This document shows, piece after piece, positions 32,544 through 40,084 of a DNA stretch of 64,000 bases; within the stretch, counting starts at the first letter, position 1, and each line of letters starts with the position of its first letter. The DNA comes from Anaerolineae bacterium (GTDB lineage Bacteria > Chloroflexota > Anaerolineae > UBA1429), in NCBI GenBank assembly GCA_040767425.1, contig JAXGON010000006.1, positions 54,595-118,594 on the forward strand. The letters run 5' to 3'. A program made the translations under genes and the position numbers. A model generated the notes under the pieces. That model ran no database searches, had not been told where the DNA came from, and worked only from the letters and a program-made list of their open reading frames with translations.

Positions 32544-33308
32544 CTATTCCTTCGCTTGGGATTGTTTGCGGCTGGCAGGCAGATCGGTCGCGCGAGCGAG
32601 GGTCAAGGCGCCAACGGTGCTGGCGCCGGCGCGGCGCAGGCTCTCGGCGCAGGCGCCCAATGTGGCGCCCGTCGTGCAGACGTCATCGATTATCAGGACG
32701 CGTTGCCCAACCACAGCGGCGTCGGTGACGGCAAAGGCGCCGTGGACGTTGGCTAGCCGTTCGGCGCGGTTCAGCCCAACCTGTGCGGGCGTGTCTCGCA
32801 GACGGGAGATGGCCTCGACGACGGGCCAACCCAGCCGCGATGACATCTCGGATGCCAGAAGGCGCGATTGGTTGTACCCGCGCTCGCGCTCCCTAGCACG
32901 ATGGAGCGGCACCGGTACGAGCAGATCGACATCGAGTCGTAGGTCGACGGCATAGGCTGCCATCAATGCCCCCAGGGGCGCGGCCAGCACACGCACCCCA
33001 TCGTACTTGAGCGCGTGAATGGCCTTGCTCAACGGATACTTGTGAAGCGCCACGCTGCGCAAGCTATCGACCGGCGGAGGATGGTGACGGCAGCGAGCGC
33101 AAAGCGCCCCACTCGTGATCGGACGCCCGCAGCGCTGGCAGAGCGGCGGGGCCTGGATCGCGATCTGGTCATGGCAGTTCTGGCAGAACCAAGAGCCGAG
33201 AGCCCCGCACGCAACGCAGTGCGGTGGGAACACGAGATCCAGGATCGACGTAAGCAAGCGCAGACTGGCCGACGCTAGCGTGCCGGGGCGCGTGGTCTGC
33301 TGAGCCAC
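32544..33308 (-). CDS. comF: ComF family protein (zinc ribbon plus PRTase)
   Basis: FPPHCVAC, four CxxC, VPVPLH, RGYNQS and IDDVCTTGAT. Confidence 0.93.
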   Translation of the reverse strand: MAQQTTRPGTLASASLRLLTSILDLVFPPHCVACGALGSWFCQNCHDQIAIQAPPLCQRCGRPITSGALCARCRHHPPPVDSLRSVALHKYPLSKAIHALKYDGVRVLAAPLGALMAAYAVDLRLDVDLLVPVPLHRARERERGYNQSRLLASEMSSRLGWPVVEAISRLRDTPAQVGLNRAERLANVHGAFAVTDAAVVGQRVLIIDDVCTTGATLGACAESLRRAGASTVGALTLARATDLPASRKQSQAKE

Positions 33309-33317
33309 CTATGGCCC

Positions 33318-33509
33318 CTAGGGCAACACCAGGGCTAGCGTCGCCAGGACGGCGAACATGGCCGCGGCCAGGATGCCCACGTGCTTGAGATCCTGGAGCA
33401 CATAGCGGTACTCGCTGGCAAAATCGACGGTGCGGTCCTTGGTCTCTTGGGAGCGTTGGCTGCGGGCTCGCCTCGCGGCCGCCGAGCGCGCCTTTTTGCT
33501 TCTGGCCAT
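33318..33509 (-). CDS. small single-TM protein, unknown function
   Basis: GAGGAG RBS; basic N-terminus and hydrophobic C-terminus. Confidence 0.75.
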   Translation of the reverse strand: MARSKKARSAAARRARSQRSQETKDRTVDFASEYRYVLQDLKHVGILAAAMFAVLATLALVLP

Positions 33510-33596: not shown

Positions 33597-35048
33597 TTAC
33601 CCCTTGATCACCCCGATGGGCACGGTTCGAGCCACCTTGCGGGCTAGGCCGACCCCCTCCACCACGGTGACGACGTCGTCAACCGTCTTGTAGGCCTCGG
33701 GGGCCTCTTCGGCCAGGCCGCGCAGGCTGTCGGTGCGGATCGAGATGCCGCGCTCTTGGAGGTCTCGCCGGACTTGGTCACCACGCACGTCGCGGCGAGA
33801 TTGCGTACGGCTCTTGACCCGGCCGGCGCCGTGGCAGCACGAGCCAAACGACTCTCGCATGGCGCGGGTGGTGCCCAGCATGATATAAGAGCAGGTGCCC
33901 ATGCTGCCCGGGACCAGCACGGGCTGGCCCAGGTCCCTGAGCGTCGTTGGCACCTCAGGCAGGCCGGGCCCAAAGGCGCGGGTGGCGCCTTTGCGGTGGA
34001 CGCAGAGCTCTTGCCGGCGGCCGTCCACCTCGTGAGTTTCGATCTTGGCGATGTTGTGACAGACATCATAGACCAAGCGCAGGTCGTCCTTGTCCAGGTC
34101 GCTCCCCAACACTTGGGAGAAGGCCTCGCGCACCCGGTGGGTGATGGTCTGGCGGTTGGCCCAGGCATAGTTGGCGGCGCACGCCATGGCCGCCAGGTAC
34201 TGGCGCCCTTCGGGCGAGCTGAGGGGGGCGCAGGCCAGCTCGCGGTCGGGCAGATCGATGCGATAGCGAGAGACCGCCTGTTGCATGCTCCGCACGGCAT
34301 CGGTGCATACCTGGTGGCCGAGACCACGCGAGCCGCAGTGGATCCACACGGCCACGCATCCCTGGTGCAGCCCCAAGGCCGCGGCGGCGTCCTCGTCAAA
34401 GATCTCGGTGATGGCGTCGACCTCGAGAAAGTGGTTGCCCGATCCCAACGTACCGATTTGATCCAGTCCCCGCTCCTTGGCGCGTGCGCTGAGGGCGGCG
34501 GGGTCGGCCTGTGGCATCTCGCCGCGATCCTCGGTGTGCTCCAGGTCCTCGGGGCGACCCCATCCGCGGGAAAGGGCCCACCGCGAGCCTTGCTCGAGGA
34601 CCCGATCCAGCTCCCGGGCGGAGAGCGCCCGATCACGAGAGGAGCCTACGCCTGAGGGTACGGCCTGAAAGAGCGCCGCCAGCAGCGTGTCCATCCGGGG
34701 CCGGATGGCATCCGCATCGAGGCGCGTCGTCAGAACACGTACCCCGCAGTTGATGTCATAGCCCACGCCACCGGGAGAGATGACGCCATCGGGCGTTGCT
34801 GTGGCCGCCACTCCGCCGATGGGAAACCCATACCCCTGGTGTATATCGGGCATGGCCAGGGCGTGGCCAACAATGCCCGGCAGGGTGGTAGTGTTCTGCA
34901 GCTGATCGATCGACCGGTCCTCGAGGGCATTGGCCAGGATGCTTTCGTTGGCATAGAGCCGCCCGGGCACCCGCATGTCTGGTCGCAACGATGTGGGTAG
35001 GTCGTAGGTCCAACGGTCTCTGCGTACGAGATCGCTTCTGGTGACCAT
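33597..35048 (-). CDS. rtcB: RtcB RNA 3'-phosphate/5'-OH ligase, archaeal-like long form
   Basis: MPDIHQGYGFPIGG, DINCG, GSGNHF, HCGSRG, CHN, HRKGAT, PGSMG, HGAGR and EEAPEAYK. Confidence 0.97.
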   Translation of the reverse strand: MVTRSDLVRRDRWTYDLPTSLRPDMRVPGRLYANESILANALEDRSIDQLQNTTTLPGIVGHALAMPDIHQGYGFPIGGVAATATPDGVISPGGVGYDINCGVRVLTTRLDADAIRPRMDTLLAALFQAVPSGVGSSRDRALSARELDRVLEQGSRWALSRGWGRPEDLEHTEDRGEMPQADPAALSARAKERGLDQIGTLGSGNHFLEVDAITEIFDEDAAAALGLHQGCVAVWIHCGSRGLGHQVCTDAVRSMQQAVSRYRIDLPDRELACAPLSSPEGRQYLAAMACAANYAWANRQTITHRVREAFSQVLGSDLDKDDLRLVYDVCHNIAKIETHEVDGRRQELCVHRKGATRAFGPGLPEVPTTLRDLGQPVLVPGSMGTCSYIMLGTTRAMRESFGSCCHGAGRVKSRTQSRRDVRGDQVRRDLQERGISIRTDSLRGLAEEAPEAYKTVDDVVTVVEGVGLARKVARTVPIGVIKG

Positions 35049-35089
35049 ATCACTTGCCTCCCCAAACTACCGTTCGTTCATGCTATCGC

Positions 35090-36442
35090 CTACACATCAA
35101 AAGTGATGCTCGCCTCCCACTCTGAGCCATGCTGGACTATCGCTAGCTCGTGAAAGGTCGCTGCCTTGATCTCGCGTTGCGGGACCCAACCGGCACAGCC
35201 GCGCAGCGTGGCGGTAAGCGAGGTGTCGTCGGCCGTGAGCGTCAGGTCAGTGTAGCACTCATGATGCTTGGCCGAGAGATAGAGCAGCTCGTTGAGCCAA
35301 TCAACCATCAGGGCCTCGCGGTCGGCGGCGTGAAGGTGCACGGTGCGCGTGACGCAGCTTTGGGTGCCGGTTTGGGCGGTCTGCATCAACGCAAACATGC
35401 CCGTGGCCGCCTTTTGTAGGAGCTCTGGCATGCTACTGGCTTGCACCCGCAGTCTCAGATCGGCGGTATGCTCCAGCTCGGTGATGCCTTCGGCCTGCTG
35501 TTCGTTGGTACGAGGGGCGGCGACGCCCTGCAGCAGCGTGCGGGTGGTCTCTACGTCTTGCGCGATCTGCGCGATGAGCGCGTTCACATCGGCAAAGCGC
35601 ATCTCGGGGCGAAGATGCTGGACCAGGTGCAGCTCGAGTTCCTTGCCGTAGAGGCTCCCCTCATAGTCTAGGACGTGGACTTCGAGCAAATAGTCGTGTC
35701 CCTCAAAGCTGGGACGATGGCCGATATTGAGCACCGACGGGCGACAGCTCCCTCCCCAGGCCGCCCAGGCCGCATACACACCGTCGGCGGGCAGCACGCG
35801 CATGGGATCGGGCCGCAGGTTGGCCGTGGGAAACCCGAGCTTGTGACCACGATGGTCGCCCGAGATCACCGGGCCCGAGAGCCGATAGCAGCGCCCGAGG
35901 AGCTGGTTGGCGGCGGCGATGTCACCCCGGCGGATGAGCTGCCGAATGCGGGTGCTGGAAATGGGGGCACCATTGTCGTATATGGGGCTGACGCTCTGCA
36001 CTGAGAAGCCCAGCTCGCGGCCCAACTGGGCGAGTCGGGCTGGGTTCCCCTCACGGCCGCGGCCCAGCGAAAAGCCGGCTCCCACCCAGAGCTCGACCAT
36101 CCGCAGCCGTTCGCGCAAGAGCCGCACAAAGGCGTCGGCGGGCATGTTGGCCAGCTGTTGATCAAAGGGAGCCACGATGACCATGTCGGGCCCCAGGTCT
36201 CGCAAGAGATCGATTCGCTCTTGCAGCGTAGAAAGGTATCCGGGGCTGTCATCGGGATAGAGCACCGCGCGGGGATGCGGGTCAAAGGTCAGCACCGCCG
36301 ACAACCGCCCAGAGTCCTGGGCATGGCTTACCAGGCGGGCCACTAGCGATTGGTGTCCCCGGTGAACGCCGTCAAAGGTGCCGATGGTCACACAGGTGTC
36401 GGCCGGGGCCTGCATCGTGTCAAAGTTATGATACAGTTCCAT
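35090..36442 (-). CDS. ribF: riboflavin kinase/FAD synthetase fused in frame to a C-terminal archease domain
   Basis: RibF motifs GTFDGVHRGH, ISSTRIR, GFPTAN and EVH; archease motifs EHTAD, DWLNELLY and IKAATFH...FDV-stop, all in one 450-aa ORF. Confidence 0.93.
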   Translation of the reverse strand: MELYHNFDTMQAPADTCVTIGTFDGVHRGHQSLVARLVSHAQDSGRLSAVLTFDPHPRAVLYPDDSPGYLSTLQERIDLLRDLGPDMVIVAPFDQQLANMPADAFVRLLRERLRMVELWVGAGFSLGRGREGNPARLAQLGRELGFSVQSVSPIYDNGAPISSTRIRQLIRRGDIAAANQLLGRCYRLSGPVISGDHRGHKLGFPTANLRPDPMRVLPADGVYAAWAAWGGSCRPSVLNIGHRPSFEGHDYLLEVHVLDYEGSLYGKELELHLVQHLRPEMRFADVNALIAQIAQDVETTRTLLQGVAAPRTNEQQAEGITELEHTADLRLRVQASSMPELLQKAATGMFALMQTAQTGTQSCVTRTVHLHAADREALMVDWLNELLYLSAKHHECYTDLTLTADDTSLTATLRGCAGWVPQREIKAATFHELAIVQHGSEWEASITFDV

Positions 36443-36478: not shown

Positions 36479-37375
36479 CTATGGGTTGGGTGCCAGCACC
36501 TTGGTGGGATGCCACTGGTTGCCGCTGTCTCGCACCAGGACGGCGATGACGGTGCCGCGCTCATCGAGGGCCAGTGCAGGCTCGCGCGGCGGCGCCGGGT
36601 CGAGCTCCAGCGAACGGCCCTGCCGCAGCGCTGCGGATTCCTCGTCGGTGGCAGCGATGGAAGGAAGATGCGCCAGCGCCTGGCCGATGCTGAGCACCAT
36701 CTTTATGGCATCGTCACGGCCGCCGGTCTCTAGCGCGCTCAGGCTGATCGATGTGCACAGCGAATGGTCTCCGATAGCCGTGCGGGTCAACGAGGCCAGA
36801 TGCGCCCCGGTGCCCAGGGCCTCGCCGAGGTCTCGTGCCAGGGCGCGGATGTAGGTCCCCTGCGAGCACACGACGTCGAGATCCAGATAGGGGGGAACCC
36901 ACGCCAAGGCTTTTAGCGAATAGATGCGCACCGGCCGCGCCTCGCGGGGCACGATGATCCCCTGCCGAGCCAGCTCGTGAAGCGGCTGGCCATTGCGCTT
37001 GATGGCGGCATACATGGGCGGCACTTGGAGGATCTCGCCCCGAAAGCGGTCCAGCACTGACGAGACGTCCTCCCAGCGGACATGTTCCCACGCTGCCCGG
37101 CCCGTCACCGCTCCCTCGGCGTCCAACGTGTCGGTAGTGGTGCCCAATACCACGCGGGCCCGGTACGTCTTGGGCAGCTCCCCCAGGTATTCGAGCACGC
37201 GGGTGGCCTTGCCCAGGCCGACCAACAGCACGCCGCGCGCCGCCGGATCCAGTGTGCCTGCATGGCCGATCCGCCGCTGATGAAACACCCGCCGCACGCG
37301 GCTGACCACATCGTGCGACGTGATGCCCGCCGGCTTGTGGATGTTGAGCACGCCGTCGATCTGGCTAGTAGCCAT
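36479..37375 (-). CDS. truB: tRNA pseudouridine(55) synthase
   Basis: KPAGITSHD, GHAGTLDP, VPPMYAAIK and CSQGTYIRAL. Confidence 0.97.
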   Translation of the reverse strand: MATSQIDGVLNIHKPAGITSHDVVSRVRRVFHQRRIGHAGTLDPAARGVLLVGLGKATRVLEYLGELPKTYRARVVLGTTTDTLDAEGAVTGRAAWEHVRWEDVSSVLDRFRGEILQVPPMYAAIKRNGQPLHELARQGIIVPREARPVRIYSLKALAWVPPYLDLDVVCSQGTYIRALARDLGEALGTGAHLASLTRTAIGDHSLCTSISLSALETGGRDDAIKMVLSIGQALAHLPSIAATDEESAALRQGRSLELDPAPPREPALALDERGTVIAVLVRDSGNQWHPTKVLAPNP

Positions 37376-37406
37376 GGTCGTCGCTGTATTTCGCCTCGGG
37401 TATCCC

Positions 37407-37814
37407 CTAGGCCAGCTCGTCGACGGTGTCATCCGACTCGTCGTCGACCTGGTCGCTCTCATCGTCGTCATGCTCCTGCGCGATCTGCTCCAGCAGCGCG
37501 TCGATTCGTGCGCCCTGCTCCCACGAGTGGTCGGCCCGAAATTCGATATCGGGGGTAAAGCGCCAGTGGAGGTGCTGGGCCAGATGACTTCGGAGGAACC
37601 CCTTGGCGGCCTCTAGCGCGACGAGGCCCTCTTCGAGCGCCGCATCGCCGCTATAGCAGGCCACATAAACGCGCGCCATGCGCCGGTCGGCTGTCAGGCG
37701 CACCTCGGTCAACGTGAGCGGCTCGACGCGCGGATCGCGCGCCTGATTGCGCAATGCCAGCGTCAGTTCCTGCAGGATGAACGAGTTCGCCCGTTCGATG
37801 CGATGGCTTGTCAT
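37407..37814 (-). CDS. rbfA: ribosome-binding factor A
   Basis: DPR, TEVRLTAD and FTPDIEFRAD; operon position. Confidence 0.95.
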   Translation of the reverse strand: MTSHRIERANSFILQELTLALRNQARDPRVEPLTLTEVRLTADRRMARVYVACYSGDAALEEGLVALEAAKGFLRSHLAQHLHWRFTPDIEFRADHSWEQGARIDALLEQIAQEHDDDESDQVDDESDDTVDELA

Positions 37815-37830
37815 GGTGCGAATCCTACCG

Positions 37831-39843
37831 CTATGCCGTCCGCTCGACCGTTTCGATCACAAAGAACTCGAGAATATCGTCGGCCTGAAAGTCGTCGAAC
37901 CCGTCGACGCCCACGCCGCACTCCATGCCGGCGGACACCTCGCGAACGTCCTCGGTGTAGCGCTTGAGCGAACTCACAGCGCCTTCGTGGAGTTCCTTCT
38001 CGCCGCGTAGAACGCGCACGCGGGCATTGCGCAAGGCCTTGCCCTCTCTCACCTGCACGCCAGCGATCTTGCCAGCACGGGGGATCGAGAACACCTGGCG
38101 GACCACCGCCCGTCCCTGCACCACCTCGCGCTTTTCAGGCTCGAGCATACCCGTGAGCGCCTTTTGTATGTCCTCAATCAGGCGATAGATGATGTCATAG
38201 GTGCGGATCTCGATGCCCTCGGCTTCGGCCATCCGCTGGGCCGAGGCGTCGACGCTGACGTTGAATCCGATCACGATGGCCTCGGAGGCCACCGCCAGGT
38301 TGACGTCGGACTCGGCAATGTTGCCAACGCCCTCGTGGATAAAGTTCACCGATAGGTTTCCGACCTTGAGCTGCTCAAGAGACGAGCGGATCGGGTCGAT
38401 GCTACCTTGCACGTCGGCCTTGAGGATCACGTTGAGGGACTTGGCCCCGTCCTGAGCGCGGGCATAGATGTCATCGAGCGAGAAGGCCTCGGGGCGCCGG
38501 TTGGCGGCCTCGGTGGCTTGCCGGGTGCGCTCCTCGGCGATCTGTCGGGCGATCCGCTCGCTACCGACCTTTTCAAAGCGGTCGCCGGCTTGGGGCACGT
38601 CACGCAGGCCCATGATGACCACAGGTTGCGAAGGGGTGGCCTTGTCGATGGGCTGGCCGCGATAGTCAAACATGGCGCGGATGCGCGCCGAGGTGTTTCC
38701 GATGACCAGCGCGTCGCCCACCTCCAGGATGCCGTCGTGCACCAGGAGCGTGGCGATGGGGCCCCGCGCCCGGTCCAAGCGGCCCTCGATGACCGTGCCC
38801 TGCGGGTTGCGTCGCGGGTTGGCCTTGAAATCGGCCATCTCGGCGACGAGGAGGATCATGTCCAGCAGCGTGTCAATGCCCTGCTTGGTCTTGGCAGAGA
38901 CGGGCACGACGATGGTGTCGCCGCCCCAATCCTCGGGAACCAAGCCAACATCAGCCAACTGCTGCTTGACGTGGTCCGGGTTGGCGCTGGGGAGATCCAT
39001 CTTGTTGAGCGCGACAATGATCGGAACGTGGGCCGCCCGCGCGTGGTTGATCGCCTCGCGCGTCTGCGGTTGTACGCCGTCGTCGGCGGCCACCACCAGA
39101 ATGGCAATGTCCGTGACGCTCGCGCCACGGGCCCGCATCTCGGTAAAGGCCTCGTGGCCGGGCGTATCGAGAAAGGTGATCTGTTTGCCCTGCGCTGTGA
39201 CCTGGTAGGCGCCGATATGCTGCGTGATGCCGCCAGCCTCTGTGACCTGCACGCTAGCCTCGCGGATCACATCCAGGAGAGAGGTCTTGCCGTGGTCCAC
39301 ATGCCCCATGATGGTGATGACTGGGGGGCGACTGGTCAGATACCGCTGTTCGTCCTCGGTATAGACCGTGCGCCGAACGTTGGTGTCGATCTCGGCTTCT
39401 TCCTCGGTCTCGGCTTTGGCCTCGGCCTCTGCCTCCGGCTGTACCTCCGAGACCTTGAACCCCAGCTCTTCCGACGCGATGGCCGCCGTCTCATAGTCAA
39501 TGAGCTGGTTGATGTTGGCCATCACGCCGAGATTCATGAGCTGCTTGATCAGCTCGATGGGGCTGGTTCCGAGTGTCTCGGCCAGCTCACGAACGGTGAT
39601 CTGCTCTGGGAGCTGGATGGGCTCGGTGGACTGGGGCTTGGGCTCGGGCGCCGCCGGGGCGGGCGTGCGCGGTGTGGCTGGAGCCTCGCCGCCTCGGCTT
39701 CGCGGGGCTGACGAGCCCGATCGCCGTGAACGAGCTTGCTGCGGTTGGGCCTGGCTCGGGGGATCTCCAATGGCGTCGCGCCGCGACCCCATGGATGCCT
39801 CTCCCGTGCGGCGCTGTGTTGGGTTGCTGTCTCTCTTGTTCAT
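37831..39843 (-). CDS. infB: translation initiation factor IF-2
   Basis: RPPVITIMGHVDHGKT, GGITQHIG, DTPGH, NKMD and ECG. Confidence 0.98.
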   Translation of the reverse strand: MNKRDSNPTQRRTGEASMGSRRDAIGDPPSQAQPQQARSRRSGSSAPRSRGGEAPATPRTPAPAAPEPKPQSTEPIQLPEQITVRELAETLGTSPIELIKQLMNLGVMANINQLIDYETAAIASEELGFKVSEVQPEAEAEAKAETEEEAEIDTNVRRTVYTEDEQRYLTSRPPVITIMGHVDHGKTSLLDVIREASVQVTEAGGITQHIGAYQVTAQGKQITFLDTPGHEAFTEMRARGASVTDIAILVVAADDGVQPQTREAINHARAAHVPIIVALNKMDLPSANPDHVKQQLADVGLVPEDWGGDTIVVPVSAKTKQGIDTLLDMILLVAEMADFKANPRRNPQGTVIEGRLDRARGPIATLLVHDGILEVGDALVIGNTSARIRAMFDYRGQPIDKATPSQPVVIMGLRDVPQAGDRFEKVGSERIARQIAEERTRQATEAANRRPEAFSLDDIYARAQDGAKSLNVILKADVQGSIDPIRSSLEQLKVGNLSVNFIHEGVGNIAESDVNLAVASEAIVIGFNVSVDASAQRMAEAEGIEIRTYDIIYRLIEDIQKALTGMLEPEKREVVQGRAVVRQVFSIPRAGKIAGVQVREGKALRNARVRVLRGEKELHEGAVSSLKRYTEDVREVSAGMECGVGVDGFDDFQADDILEFFVIETVERTA

Positions 39844-40084
39844 GGCATATCCCCCTCTGTGGTCTGGTAGGCGCCAGCTGTGCCCCCATCGGCGCGCCAA
39901 CGGCAAAGCGCCGTGACCGCGAGCACGCGGGGGCCTTGGCTGTCCGTGAGTAACTGTCGAGAGTGCGAGTTCCGGTTTCCGGGGAGGCGTCGAGGGGATC
40001 GAGCGGGGCTGCGAGCGTTTGTATCACGCAGCCATAGGCTCTTCCCTCAAGGCATCCCGCGCCGAGGCGCCCCTCATGCCTACC

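What the first reader, a model, noticed from the sequence alone, without database searches (positions are those of the whole stretch)
35090..36442. RibF-archease fusion protein directly upstream of RtcB
Seen: a complete RibF runs without a stop through the linker LLQGVAAPRTNEQQAEG into a complete archease (EHTAD ... IKAATFH ... FDV-stop). The linker has no in-frame ATG/GTG/TTG or usable RBS. rtcB starts 41 nt after the stop. Established: archease activates archaeal-type RtcB by promoting its guanylylation, and needs its free C-terminal carboxylate for metal binding, so only an N-terminal fusion is tolerated, as here. Inference: FAD synthesis is physically joined to RNA ligation/repair. This could couple ligase activation to flavin or nucleotide status, or simply guarantee stoichiometric expression. 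I do not know of a described example.
Basis: partly seen in the sequence, partly recalled or inferred. Interest (0 to 1): 0.8.

Follow-up and report, generated by a model that had tools for sequence, protein, structure and literature searches.

The report
RibF-archease fusion protein beside RtcB
This Anaerolineae bacterium really does make its FAD-synthesising enzyme and the helper of the RNA ligase RtcB as one protein. Relatives show that the join formed repeatedly between neighbouring genes of one operon, so it is most likely an evolutionary by-product and not a flavin-controlled RNA-repair switch.

Summary
Window 35090-36442 (minus strand) is one 450-aa ORF: FAD_syn + Flavokinase (a complete RibF) + a 17-aa linker + a complete archease. 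The protein ends in D-V-stop. There is no in-frame start in the linker, and an archaeal-type rtcB starts 41 nt downstream. Four independent metagenome assemblies show no indel or stop at the junction. At least 44 protein clusters (33-88% identity over the query region, residues 250-450) share the architecture.

Context changes the interpretation. In Chloroflexota, nusA-infB-rbfA-truB-ribF-archease-rtcB is a conserved operon. In this operon ribF and archease are either separate genes (often overlapping, or split by a single stop) or fused. Fused forms are scattered on the tree: at least 4 changes, and an AU test rejects a single origin (p=0.0003). One fusion differs from its unfused relatives by a stop-to-Cys change. 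Archease is also found fused to MobB, FtsH and a P-loop kinase, always as the C-terminal domain. This fits its need for a free terminal carboxylate.

The most likely reading is a recurrent, ratchet-like fusion of coupled neighbours in which both activities are kept. No evidence supports flavin-RtcB coupling. I found no published description. Novelty and interest are modest.

The parts
35090..36442 (-). Fused ribF~archease ORF, 450 aa plus TAG stop.
   Evidence: The frame is intact in four independent assemblies.
35948..36409 (-). FMN adenylyltransferase (FAD_syn) domain, residues 12-165. Motifs GTFDGVHRGH and SSTRIR are present.
   Evidence: Pfam PF06574, 150.6 bits. H27, H30, S163 and R167 are invariant in the fusion family. 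Aligns to C. ammoniagenes FADS. Foldseek TM 0.84 to 2x0k.
35534..35899 (-). Riboflavin kinase (Flavokinase) domain, residues 182-303. It has the PTAN motif (205-208) and Glu254, which aligns with catalytic E268 of CaFADS.
   Evidence: Pfam PF01687, 138.6 bits. Alignment. T206, A207, N208 and E254 are at least 90% conserved.
35480..35533 (-). Linker, residues 304-321. It varies in sequence and length among relatives, contains no in-frame start codon, and has low model confidence.
   Evidence: pLDDT about 56; below 50 for residues 314-316. A strain variant carries T312A and N313G.
35093..35479 (-). Archease domain, residues 322-450. It has HTAD (Asp328), KAAT (Lys426) and C-terminal Asp449-Val450 followed directly by the stop.
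   Evidence: Pfam PF01951, 98.7 bits. Aligns to solved archeases 1jw3, 4n2p and 8btx. The motif residues are invariant in 43 fusion proteins. Foldseek hit to human archease bound to RTCB, 8odo_D, rmsd 2.6.
35049..35089 (-). 41-nt spacer with a GGAGG Shine-Dalgarno (35057-35061) 8 nt before the rtcB ATG.
33597..35048 (-). rtcB, 483 aa, archaeal/eukaryal (archease-dependent) type.
   Evidence: Pfam RtcB, 581 bits. E=3e-170 to P. horikoshii RtcB, with the GYDINCG, GSGNHF, GSRGLGH, HNI and CHGAGR motifs aligned. It falls well below the cut-off of the short RtcB-family model PRK09588 (184 vs 407 bits), which I take to be the E. coli-type model.
36479..37471 (-). truB, directly upstream. The listed ORF is the longest one, and the true start is probably later.
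   Evidence: Pfam TruB_N, TruB_C_2 and TruB_C.
37407..39906 (-). rbfA (37407-37814) and infB (37831-39906). These are upstream members of the same-strand operon.
   Evidence: ORFs. I named them from their translations and from homologous loci annotated with RBFA/IF-2. No promoter-like or terminator-like site was found from 42129 down to 32400.

Best explanation
The gene encodes a three-domain protein.

Domain functions:
- The first 303 residues are the cell's ordinary bifunctional FAD synthetase (riboflavin kinase + FMN adenylyltransferase).
- The last 129 residues are a fully competent archease, tethered by a flexible linker of about 17 residues.
- By homology, the archease part docks as a monomer into the active-site groove of the RtcB encoded 41 nt downstream. 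There it supplies the third Mn2+ site through Asp328, Asp449 and the free carboxylate of the terminal Val450. This positions GTP for guanylylation of RtcB's histidine and allows multiple-turnover RNA ligation.
- The RibF part makes FMN and FAD as usual.

Origin of the join:
- It is a product of gene order. In Chloroflexota, archease-rtcB sits directly behind ribF at the end of the nusA-infB-rbfA-truB-ribF operon.
- ribF and archease are translationally coupled (4-nt overlaps, or one stop codon in the same frame).
- Loss of that stop, or a small frameshift, fuses them.
- Archease tolerates N-terminal cargo but nothing at its C-terminus, so such fusions are viable. They are hard to reverse once the old archease start codon decays, as it has in the window's clade. 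This makes the process a ratchet.

Shown here: the architecture, intact motifs, conservation, recurrent origin and the stop-to-sense junction.
Inferred: both activities are retained, the archease acts on RtcB while tethered, and there is no flavin-dependent regulation.
For: Architecture and motifs are intact.

Operon context:
- The order truB-ribF-archease-rtcB is conserved across 38 of the 80 archease loci kept from GTDB species genomes (all named records are Chloroflexota, mostly Anaerolineae).
- Of these, 14 are fused, 20 are adjacent and split, and 4 are split with an insert.
- The same operon occurs in a second Chloroflexota lineage.

Recurrent origin:
- Fused states are scattered on the trees. 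The RtcB tree needs 6 changes, at least 4 of them forced by well-supported branches.
- The concatenated RibF+archease+RtcB tree needs 4 forced changes.
- The AU test rejects a single fused clade (delta lnL 479, p=0.00026).

Junction evidence:
- Unfused L017 reads '...SNEG*GMSEGFEEIEHTAD' in one frame. Fused L031 reads '...SNEGCGMRKGFEEVEHTAD'.
- Young fusions (L031, L044) keep the old archease ATG and an SD-like motif.
- Old fused clades (window, L001, L035, L049) have no in-frame start within 30 codons of HTAD.

Other partners: archease is fused to other upstream genes, namely MobB, FtsH (L060) and an AAA_33/KTI12-like kinase (P0086). It is always the C-terminal domain.

Structural basis for 'C-terminus must be free, N-terminus tolerant': the terminal carboxyl of I179 ligates Mn(C), and N-terminally His-tagged archease co-crystallised with RTCB.

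AF2 model: three confident domains and a low-confidence linker. The archease part superposes on RTCB-bound human archease.
Against: - Recurrence and long retention of the fusion could instead reflect selection. The window clade spans species down to 59% identity over the archease domain (L003/L004; about 70% over the whole protein for P0006). A second fused clade is only 39-45% identical to the window protein.
- ribF-archease adjacency is conserved in at least two distinct Chloroflexota lineages, which is more than a random neighbourhood.
- A subfamily keeps an intact FMNAT domain fused to archease while the flavokinase domain has decayed or been deleted. This could hint at a specific FMNAT-archease relationship. 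However, the same flavokinase loss occurs in an unfused locus (L085).
- I could not check whether this genome has a second archease, ribF or flavokinase, because the genome search was shut.
- No expression or protein data exist. No RNA run holds the sequence.
- The model gave no inter-domain error estimates, so a fixed RibF-archease interface is not excluded.
Confidence: 0.65

Rival explanations
1. The fusion is selected for dosage or stability, not for signalling. Making archease as the tail of an essential, constitutively made enzyme guarantees that the RtcB activator is always present at a fixed level and is protected from degradation. RtcB is translated separately from its own SD.
For: The fused state is stable in deep clades, and the internal start has been lost. 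rtcB keeps its own GGAGG. Unfused relatives already couple the two genes by overlapping stop and start. Archease was originally described as improving the solubility and specificity of partner enzymes (cited).
Against: Sister lineages do well with split genes. Fused and split states alternate at short distances (L031 vs L066/L023; L006 vs L018/L008), which suggests little fitness difference. Translational coupling already gives co-expression.
Confidence: 0.17
2. The coupling is truly functional. In this reading the RibF (or at least the FMNAT) module regulates or assists RtcB activation. It might gate archease by flavin or ATP occupancy, scaffold several archease units through RibF oligomers, or link RNA ligation to flavin-dependent redox protection of RtcB's catalytic Cys. 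Alternatively, archease might stimulate the FMNAT nucleotidyl transfer in the way it helps RtcB guanylylation.
For: The fusion arose at least 4 times. The ribF-archease neighbourhood is conserved in two Chloroflexota lineages. At least 20 clusters keep FMNAT motifs (HxGH, SSTxIR) and archease motifs while losing the flavokinase. In metazoa RTCB depends on the oxidoreductase PYROXD1 to protect its active site (abstracts). That PYROXD1 is a flavoprotein comes from my own knowledge.
Against: The linker varies in length and sequence and is predicted to be disordered. Many close relatives have split genes, and some have an unrelated two-gene insert between ribF and archease (L066). Archease fuses equally to MobB, FtsH and a kinase. 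Flavokinase loss also occurs without fusion (L085). No known chemistry links flavins to RtcB in prokaryotes.
Confidence: 0.12
3. The fusion is only apparent. It could be a sequencing or assembly error, or a fused ORF whose archease is in fact made separately by internal (possibly non-canonical) initiation or by proteolytic cleavage in the linker.
For: MAG-derived sequences can carry frameshift errors. Some single-locus fusions (L031, L006, L044, L060) rest on one assembly each. A weak GAAGG lies 10 nt upstream of CTG323 (sequence).
Against: Four independent metagenome assemblies agree without indels or stops. The fusion is shared by several species and 44 protein clusters. There is no canonical start between residues 287 and 332. 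Starts after residue 332 would delete the essential Asp328. Natural archease starts lie 7-13 codons before HTAD.
Confidence: 0.05

Closest known systems
Archease-RtcB 'tRNA splicing operon' of archaea and diverse bacteria (Desai et al. 2014, PMC3973293; P. horikoshii archease PDB 4n2p and RtcB 1uc2/4dwq)
   Same: Archease lies immediately upstream of an archaeal-type RtcB (E=3e-170 to PhRtcB). The conserved carboxylate tip (HTAD Asp, C-terminal Asp) and the KA(A/I)T Lys are present.
   Different: Here archease is not a 16-kDa free protein. It is the C-terminal domain of the housekeeping RibF. The pair is appended to the nusA-infB-rbfA-truB-ribF operon and is not a stand-alone two-gene unit. 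The paper does not mention fusions.
Human RTCB-Archease activation complex (Gerber et al. 2024, PMC10944509; PDB 8odo, 8odp, 8btx)
   Same: The equivalents of D51, D178 and the terminal carboxylate of I179 (Asp328, Asp449, Val450-COO-) are present and invariant in the family. The modelled domain superposes on RTCB-bound monomeric archease (TM 0.68, rmsd 2.6 A). Human archease also carries an N-terminal extension, and an N-terminal tag is tolerated.
   Different: The N-terminal cargo here is a 34-kDa two-domain enzyme. No complex has been modelled or measured.
Type I bifunctional prokaryotic FAD synthetase (C. ammoniagenes FADS, PDB 2x0k; T. maritima TM379, 1mrz)
   Same: Both modules and their catalytic motifs are present (E=1e-54; Foldseek TM 0.84). 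The gene sits in the usual place after truB.
   Different: It carries an extra C-terminal archease domain. Related Chloroflexota versions have lost the kinase module.
Other archease N-terminal fusions seen here (MobB~archease, FtsH~archease, AAA_33/KTI12-like kinase~archease) and in earlier scan notes (2H phosphoesterase, PRTase, COG0523 GTPase)
   Same: Archease is always the C-terminal domain, usually directly upstream of rtcB. Fused and split forms coexist.
   Different: The partner differs. MobB and COG0523 are GTPases and 2H enzymes act on RNA ends, so those partners have a more obvious link to RtcB chemistry than RibF has.

Membership tests
Archease (PF01951; MTH1598/TM1083) | Significant match to the family profile over its whole length. 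| tested here: met
   PF01951 scores 98.7 bits (cut-off 25) over profile positions 3-136 of 136. PDB hits are 1jw3 (5e-08) and 4n2p (6.5e-07). Fold match to 8odo_D, 8btx, 1jw3 and 4n2p.
Archease (PF01951; MTH1598/TM1083) | N-terminal metal-binding Asp (human D51) in the (H)TAD motif. | tested here: met
   Asp328 in EHTAD aligns with 'ehtaD' of 4n2p and 'dhtaD' of 8btx. It is invariant in 43 fusion proteins.
Archease (PF01951; MTH1598/TM1083) | Penultimate Asp plus a free C-terminal carboxylate (human D178 and I179-COO-) that ligate Mn(C). | tested here: met
   The protein ends D449-V450-TAG. D449 and V450 are invariant and terminal in all 43 family members. The requirement is documented.
Archease (PF01951; MTH1598/TM1083) | Genomic pairing with an archaeal-type rtcB. 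| tested here: met
   rtcB starts 41 nt downstream. rtcB follows archease in nearly all of the 80 related loci.
Archease (PF01951; MTH1598/TM1083) | Stimulates RtcB guanylylation and multiple-turnover ligation. | not testable with these tools
   This needs purified fusion protein and RtcB.
Bifunctional riboflavin kinase/FMN adenylyltransferase RibF (TIGR00083 / NF004160) | Scores above the curated equivalog cut-offs. | tested here: met
   NF004160 scores 318.2 (cut-off 295), NF004162 scores 250.1 (cut-off 241) and TIGR00083 scores 246.7 (cut-off 184.35).
Bifunctional riboflavin kinase/FMN adenylyltransferase RibF (TIGR00083 / NF004160) | FMNAT motifs: (G/S)xFDGxHxGH and SSTxIR. | tested here: met
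   G21-TFDGVHRGH-30 and S162-STRIR-167 align to CaFADS. They are invariant or nearly invariant in the family.
Bifunctional riboflavin kinase/FMN adenylyltransferase RibF (TIGR00083 / NF004160) | RFK motifs: PTAN and the catalytic Glu (CaFADS E268). | tested here: met
   P205-TAN-208 is present. Glu254 aligns with E268 of 2x0k by my count from the alignment.
Bifunctional riboflavin kinase/FMN adenylyltransferase RibF (TIGR00083 / NF004160) | It is the genome's housekeeping (sole) RibF. | tested here: inconclusive
   It sits in the conserved truB-ribF position, and there is no second copy in the 64-kb window. The whole-genome search was shut.
RtcB, archaeal/eukaryal archease-dependent type (PF01139) | Full-length similarity to P. 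horikoshii and human RTCB, with the metal-binding and nucleophile motifs. | tested here: met
   PF01139 scores 581 bits. Hits are 3e-170 to 1uc2 and 5e-142 to human 8odo_A. The motifs GYDINCG, GSGNHF, GSRGLGH, HNI and CHGAGR are aligned.

The most novel reading that the evidence does not exclude
The RibF-archease link would be functional and not accidental. The FMNAT nucleotidyl-transferase module, which is retained with archease even where the flavokinase has decayed, and archease would work together. One possibility is that archease lends its metal-carboxylate tip to FMN adenylylation, as it does to RtcB guanylylation. Another is that flavin or ATP occupancy of RibF gates RtcB activation. 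That would be a prokaryotic counterpart of the dependence of metazoan RTCB on PYROXD1 (a flavoprotein, from my own knowledge).
Probability: 0.1. Interest if true: 0.7.

Novelty: new variant of a known kind. Interest (0 to 1): 0.3.

Why it matters
1. It is a natural experiment on archease. A 34-kDa enzyme can hang on its N-terminus, and nothing is ever found after its C-terminus. This is independent evolutionary support for the 2024 structural finding that the terminal carboxylate is a metal ligand.

2. It is a clean, datable example of gene fusion by stop-codon loss between translationally coupled neighbours. The steps are caught in different lineages: split with one stop, fused with the old ATG kept, and fused with the ATG lost.

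3. In Chloroflexota the RtcB ligase system is wired into the nusA-infB-rbfA-truB housekeeping operon and not into a stress operon. This suggests a constitutive RNA-maintenance role.

4. Annotation misses it. These proteins are named only 'bifunctional riboflavin kinase/FAD synthetase' or only 'archease', so genome surveys would under-count archease.

If the minority reading (functional coupling) were true, it would open an unexplored link between flavin metabolism and RNA ligation.

Tried and rejected
- Assembly artefact or frameshift: rejected. Four independent assemblies and many relatives agree.
- Internal start for a separate archease: rejected for canonical codons. Non-canonical initiation is not excluded.
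- Single ancient fusion inherited by all fused lineages: rejected by the trees and the AU test.
- Second archease, ribF, mobB or rtcB copy nearby: none in the window. The whole-genome search could not be run (note, 53).
- Transcript evidence: no RNA run holds the sequence.
- Internal promoter or terminator that would separate rtcB or the fusion from the operon: none found by the consensus scan. This is weak evidence, because Chloroflexota promoters may differ.
- Inter-domain contacts from the AF2 model: coordinates and PAE were not available to scripts, so a fixed RibF-archease interface could not be tested.
- Literature: no paper combines archease with RibF, FAD synthetase, riboflavin kinase, MobB or FtsH. 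The key archease papers do not mention fusions.
- Idea that flavokinase loss is tied to fusion: rejected, because L085/L086 show the same loss in a split gene.
Full report
OBSERVATION

On the minus strand, 35090..36442 is a single 450-aa ORF. Pfam finds three domains:
- FAD_syn, residues 12-165, 150.6 bits.
- Flavokinase, residues 182-303, 138.6 bits.
- Archease, residues 322-450, 98.7 bits, covering profile positions 3-136 of 136.

NCBIfam RibF equivalogs pass their cut-offs (NF004160 318 vs 295; TIGR00083 247 vs 184). The linker LLQGVAAPRTNEQQAEG is residues 303-319. No ATG, GTG or TTG lies in frame between residues 287 and 332. The next candidates (V333, M338) would delete the essential Asp328. 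The protein ends ...ITFDV-TAG. After a 41-nt spacer with GGAGG 8 nt before the ATG comes a 483-aa RtcB.

IS IT REAL?

Contigs from four independent metagenomes (wastewater, oil field, anaerobic digester, crude oil) cover the junction (35480-35533). They show no insertion or deletion. Applying all their substitutions yields no stop. One strain differs in the linker itself (T312A, N313G).

A search with the junction and archease part as query found 44 protein clusters with the same three-domain architecture. They are 441-480 aa long for the full-length members and 33-88% identical over the query region. Where named, they are called 'MAG: bifunctional riboflavin kinase/FAD synthetase [Anaerolineae bacterium]'.

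In an alignment of 43 of these proteins the functional residues of all three modules are invariant or nearly so:
- FMNAT: H27 and H30 (HxGH), S163 and R167 (SSTRIR).
- RFK: T206, A207, N208 (PTAN) and E254.
- Archease: H325, T326, A327, D328 (HTAD); K426, A427, T429; and D449-V450 as the last two residues.

WHAT THE PARTS ARE

- The RibF part aligns over its full length with C. ammoniagenes FADS (E=1e-54; E254 aligns with catalytic E268).
- The archease part aligns with the solved archeases of M. thermautotrophicus, P. horikoshii and human.
- RtcB is the archaeal/eukaryal type (E=3e-170 to P. horikoshii RtcB, 5e-142 to human RTCB), with the metal-binding and nucleophile motifs aligned. It scores far below the cut-off of the short RtcB-family model PRK09588.
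- An AlphaFold2 model built on the family alignment has mean pLDDT 88. It shows three confident domains and a low-confidence linker (residues 305-319).
- Its RibF part superposes on CaFADS (TM 0.84). Its archease part superposes on monomeric human archease bound to RTCB (8odo_D, rmsd 2.6 A).

The RTCB-Archease structures support this: Mn(C) is coordinated by D51, D178 and the terminal carboxyl of I179, and N-terminally His-tagged archease co-crystallised with RTCB.

CONTEXT CHANGES THE INTERPRETATION

I scanned one genome per GTDB species with an archease-domain profile. The scan gave 596 relatives, and the best 80 were kept. I classified every locus by ORF structure and BLAST.

In the loci from Chloroflexota (mostly Anaerolineae) the order truB-ribF-archease-rtcB is conserved, but in three states:
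- 14 loci have ribF fused to archease.
- 20 have the two genes adjacent but split.
- 4 have an insert between them.

A parallel arrangement, mobB-archease-rtcB, exists as 5 fused loci, 10 adjacent and split, and 1 with a gap. In other phyla archease stands alone before rtcB.

The same operon (nusA-ylxR-infB-rbfA-nrnA-truB-[FAD_syn...]-archease-rtcB) occurs in a second Chloroflexota lineage. In the window no promoter-like or terminator-like site interrupts the same-strand run from nusA to rtcB. This agrees with an earlier scan note (e1-5220004). From my own knowledge, truB-ribC(ribF) at the end of the nusA-infB operon is the ancestral layout in Bacillus and other Terrabacteria. If so, archease-rtcB was appended to a housekeeping operon, and ribF is simply the gene it landed behind.

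THE FUSION IS RECURRENT

- On an RtcB tree (66 rows) the fused state needs 6 changes, at least 4 of them forced by well-supported branches.
- On a concatenated RibF+archease+RtcB tree (28 rows, 921 columns, linker excluded) it needs 4 forced changes.
- An AU test rejects the best tree with all fused rows together (delta lnL 479, p=0.00026).
- The window belongs to a fused clade with L001, L002 and L003 (support 100).
- A second fused clade (L009, L062, L049, L022) and the single loci L006, L031 and L044 are separate events.

THE JUNCTIONS SHOW THE MECHANISM

- In split L017 and L023, ribF and archease are in the same frame, separated by one stop: '...RVMSNEG*GMSEGFEEIEHTAD'.
- In fused L031 the same position reads '...SNEGCGMRKGFEEVEHTAD', a stop-to-Cys change.
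- Other split loci have out-of-frame overlaps of a few bases.
- In split genes the archease ATG lies 7-13 codons before HTAD.
- The young fusions L031 and L044 still have that ATG with an SD-like motif.
- The older fused clades (window, L001, L035, L049) have no in-frame start within 30 codons. In the window's lineage archease can therefore be made only as the tail of RibF, unless another copy exists elsewhere in the genome.

ARCHEASE FUSES TO WHATEVER IS UPSTREAM, AND IS ALWAYS LAST

A phmmer search of 1.84 billion representatives with the archease part found 4257 hits. In 148 of the best 150 the match runs to within one residue of the C-terminus. The other two are split matches.

The longer proteins among them carry N-terminal RibF, FAD_syn only, MobB, or an AAA_33/KTI12-like P-loop kinase. 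L060 (a Gemmatimonadales MAG) is FtsH~archease. Earlier scan notes, which I treat as leads only, list further partners: 2H phosphoesterase, PRTase and COG0523 GTPase. This promiscuity, together with the strict C-terminal position, is what one expects if fusions arise by accident of gene order and are filtered only by archease's structural constraint.

A COMPLICATION

At least 20 clusters from another Chloroflexota lineage are FAD_syn~archease in which the flavokinase has changed. In some it is reduced to a remnant of about 95 aa (381-400 aa proteins). In others it is deleted (306-326 aa proteins).

- The full-length members keep HxGH, and all keep SSTxIR, HTAD, KAxT and the D-X end. None keeps PTAN.
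- This could suggest a special FMNAT-archease relationship.
- However, L085/L086 show the same kinase-less FAD_syn as a separate gene next to a separate archease. Kinase loss is therefore independent of fusion.
- In L083 the fusion is followed by a membrane protein and no rtcB within 8 kb. In L081, L087 and L088 rtcB follows as usual.

VERDICT

The best-supported explanation (about 0.65) is a recurrent, hard-to-reverse fusion of two translationally coupled neighbours. It yields a protein that makes FMN and FAD with its first two domains and activates the downstream RtcB with its tethered third domain.

- Selection for co-expression or stability is a plausible addition (about 0.17).
- Genuine flavin-RtcB or FMNAT-archease coupling is not excluded (about 0.1) but has no positive evidence.
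- Artefact, cleavage or internal initiation is unlikely (about 0.05).

I found no publication describing this architecture. The sequences are in public databases under names that mention only one half. It is a new variant of the known archease-RtcB operon and is of modest interest.

LIMITS

- The genome-wide search tools were shut, so sole-copy status is untested.
- There are no expression data.
- The trees were built with the 'quick' method.
- The fused group was defined after a first tree had been seen.
- MAG-derived single-locus fusions (L006, L031, L044, L060) could include assembly errors. The window's own clade does not depend on them.

Noticed in passing
L025, L040, L041, L043, L055 (fused); L032, L063, L067-L072, L077, L080 (split); proteins P0045-P0054: A second Anaerolineae arrangement is mobB-archease-rtcB. 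In it a MobB-family P-loop GTPase (PF03205, 112-118 bits) lies directly upstream of archease or is fused to its N-terminus. The MobB-linked RtcBs form one well-supported clade. A GTP-binding partner for the activator of a GTP-dependent ligase looks more likely to be functional than RibF. An earlier scan note reports a COG0523 GTPase~archease fusion elsewhere.
   Followed up: partly
L060:2105-4390 (+), Gemmatimonadales MAG: A 761-aa ORF combines FtsH_ext + AAA + Peptidase_M41 (a complete FtsH) with a C-terminal archease (residues 631-761), directly before rtcB. It is a single locus, so it could be a real fusion or a MAG error.
   Followed up: partly
P0086 (351 aa, metagenomic): An AAA_33/KTI12-like P-loop kinase domain (93.6 bits) is fused N-terminally to archease. 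It may be a polynucleotide-kinase-like or tRNA-kinase-like partner.
   Followed up: no
L081:8001-8972, L083:8001-9176, L087:5001-6146, L088:5001-6185; L085:8001-8819 (unfused); proteins P0105, P0158, P0202-P0220: A Chloroflexota subfamily has a truB-adjacent 'ribF' that has lost the flavokinase module (remnant of about 95 aa, or clean deletion) but keeps intact FMNAT motifs. It is usually fused to archease. These organisms must obtain riboflavin kinase activity elsewhere. The proteins are annotated only as 'archease' or 'FAD synthase/SHS2 domain-containing protein'.
   Followed up: partly
L083:9184-10695 (+): In this locus the FAD_syn~archease gene is followed by a 503-aa polytopic membrane protein with no Pfam family. 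No rtcB lies within 8 kb. It is an archease whose RtcB partner is not adjacent.
   Followed up: partly
L066:3290-3974 (+); similar gaps in L012, L026, L037: Two small overlapping ORFs (104 and 129 aa, the second with an HHFHDE-containing motif) are inserted between ribF and archease in some Anaerolineae. They may be a mobile two-gene cassette such as a toxin-antitoxin pair.
   Followed up: no
L067:4489-7473 (+): An RtcB ORF of 994 aa, about twice the normal length, matches RtcB at both ends. It is probably an intein-containing RtcB, consistent with the NCBIfam 'RtcB_rel_intein' model.
   Followed up: no
L081:6408-7796 and L087:3595-4950 (+): A protein of about 450-460 aa with no Pfam match is inserted between truB and the FAD_syn~archease gene in two related loci.
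   Followed up: no
window 32544-33308 (-): A ComF-like protein (double zinc ribbon + phosphoribosyltransferase domain) follows rtcB on the same strand, after a 63-aa ORF (33318-33509). No terminator-like site separates them from rtcB in the simple scan.
   Followed up: no
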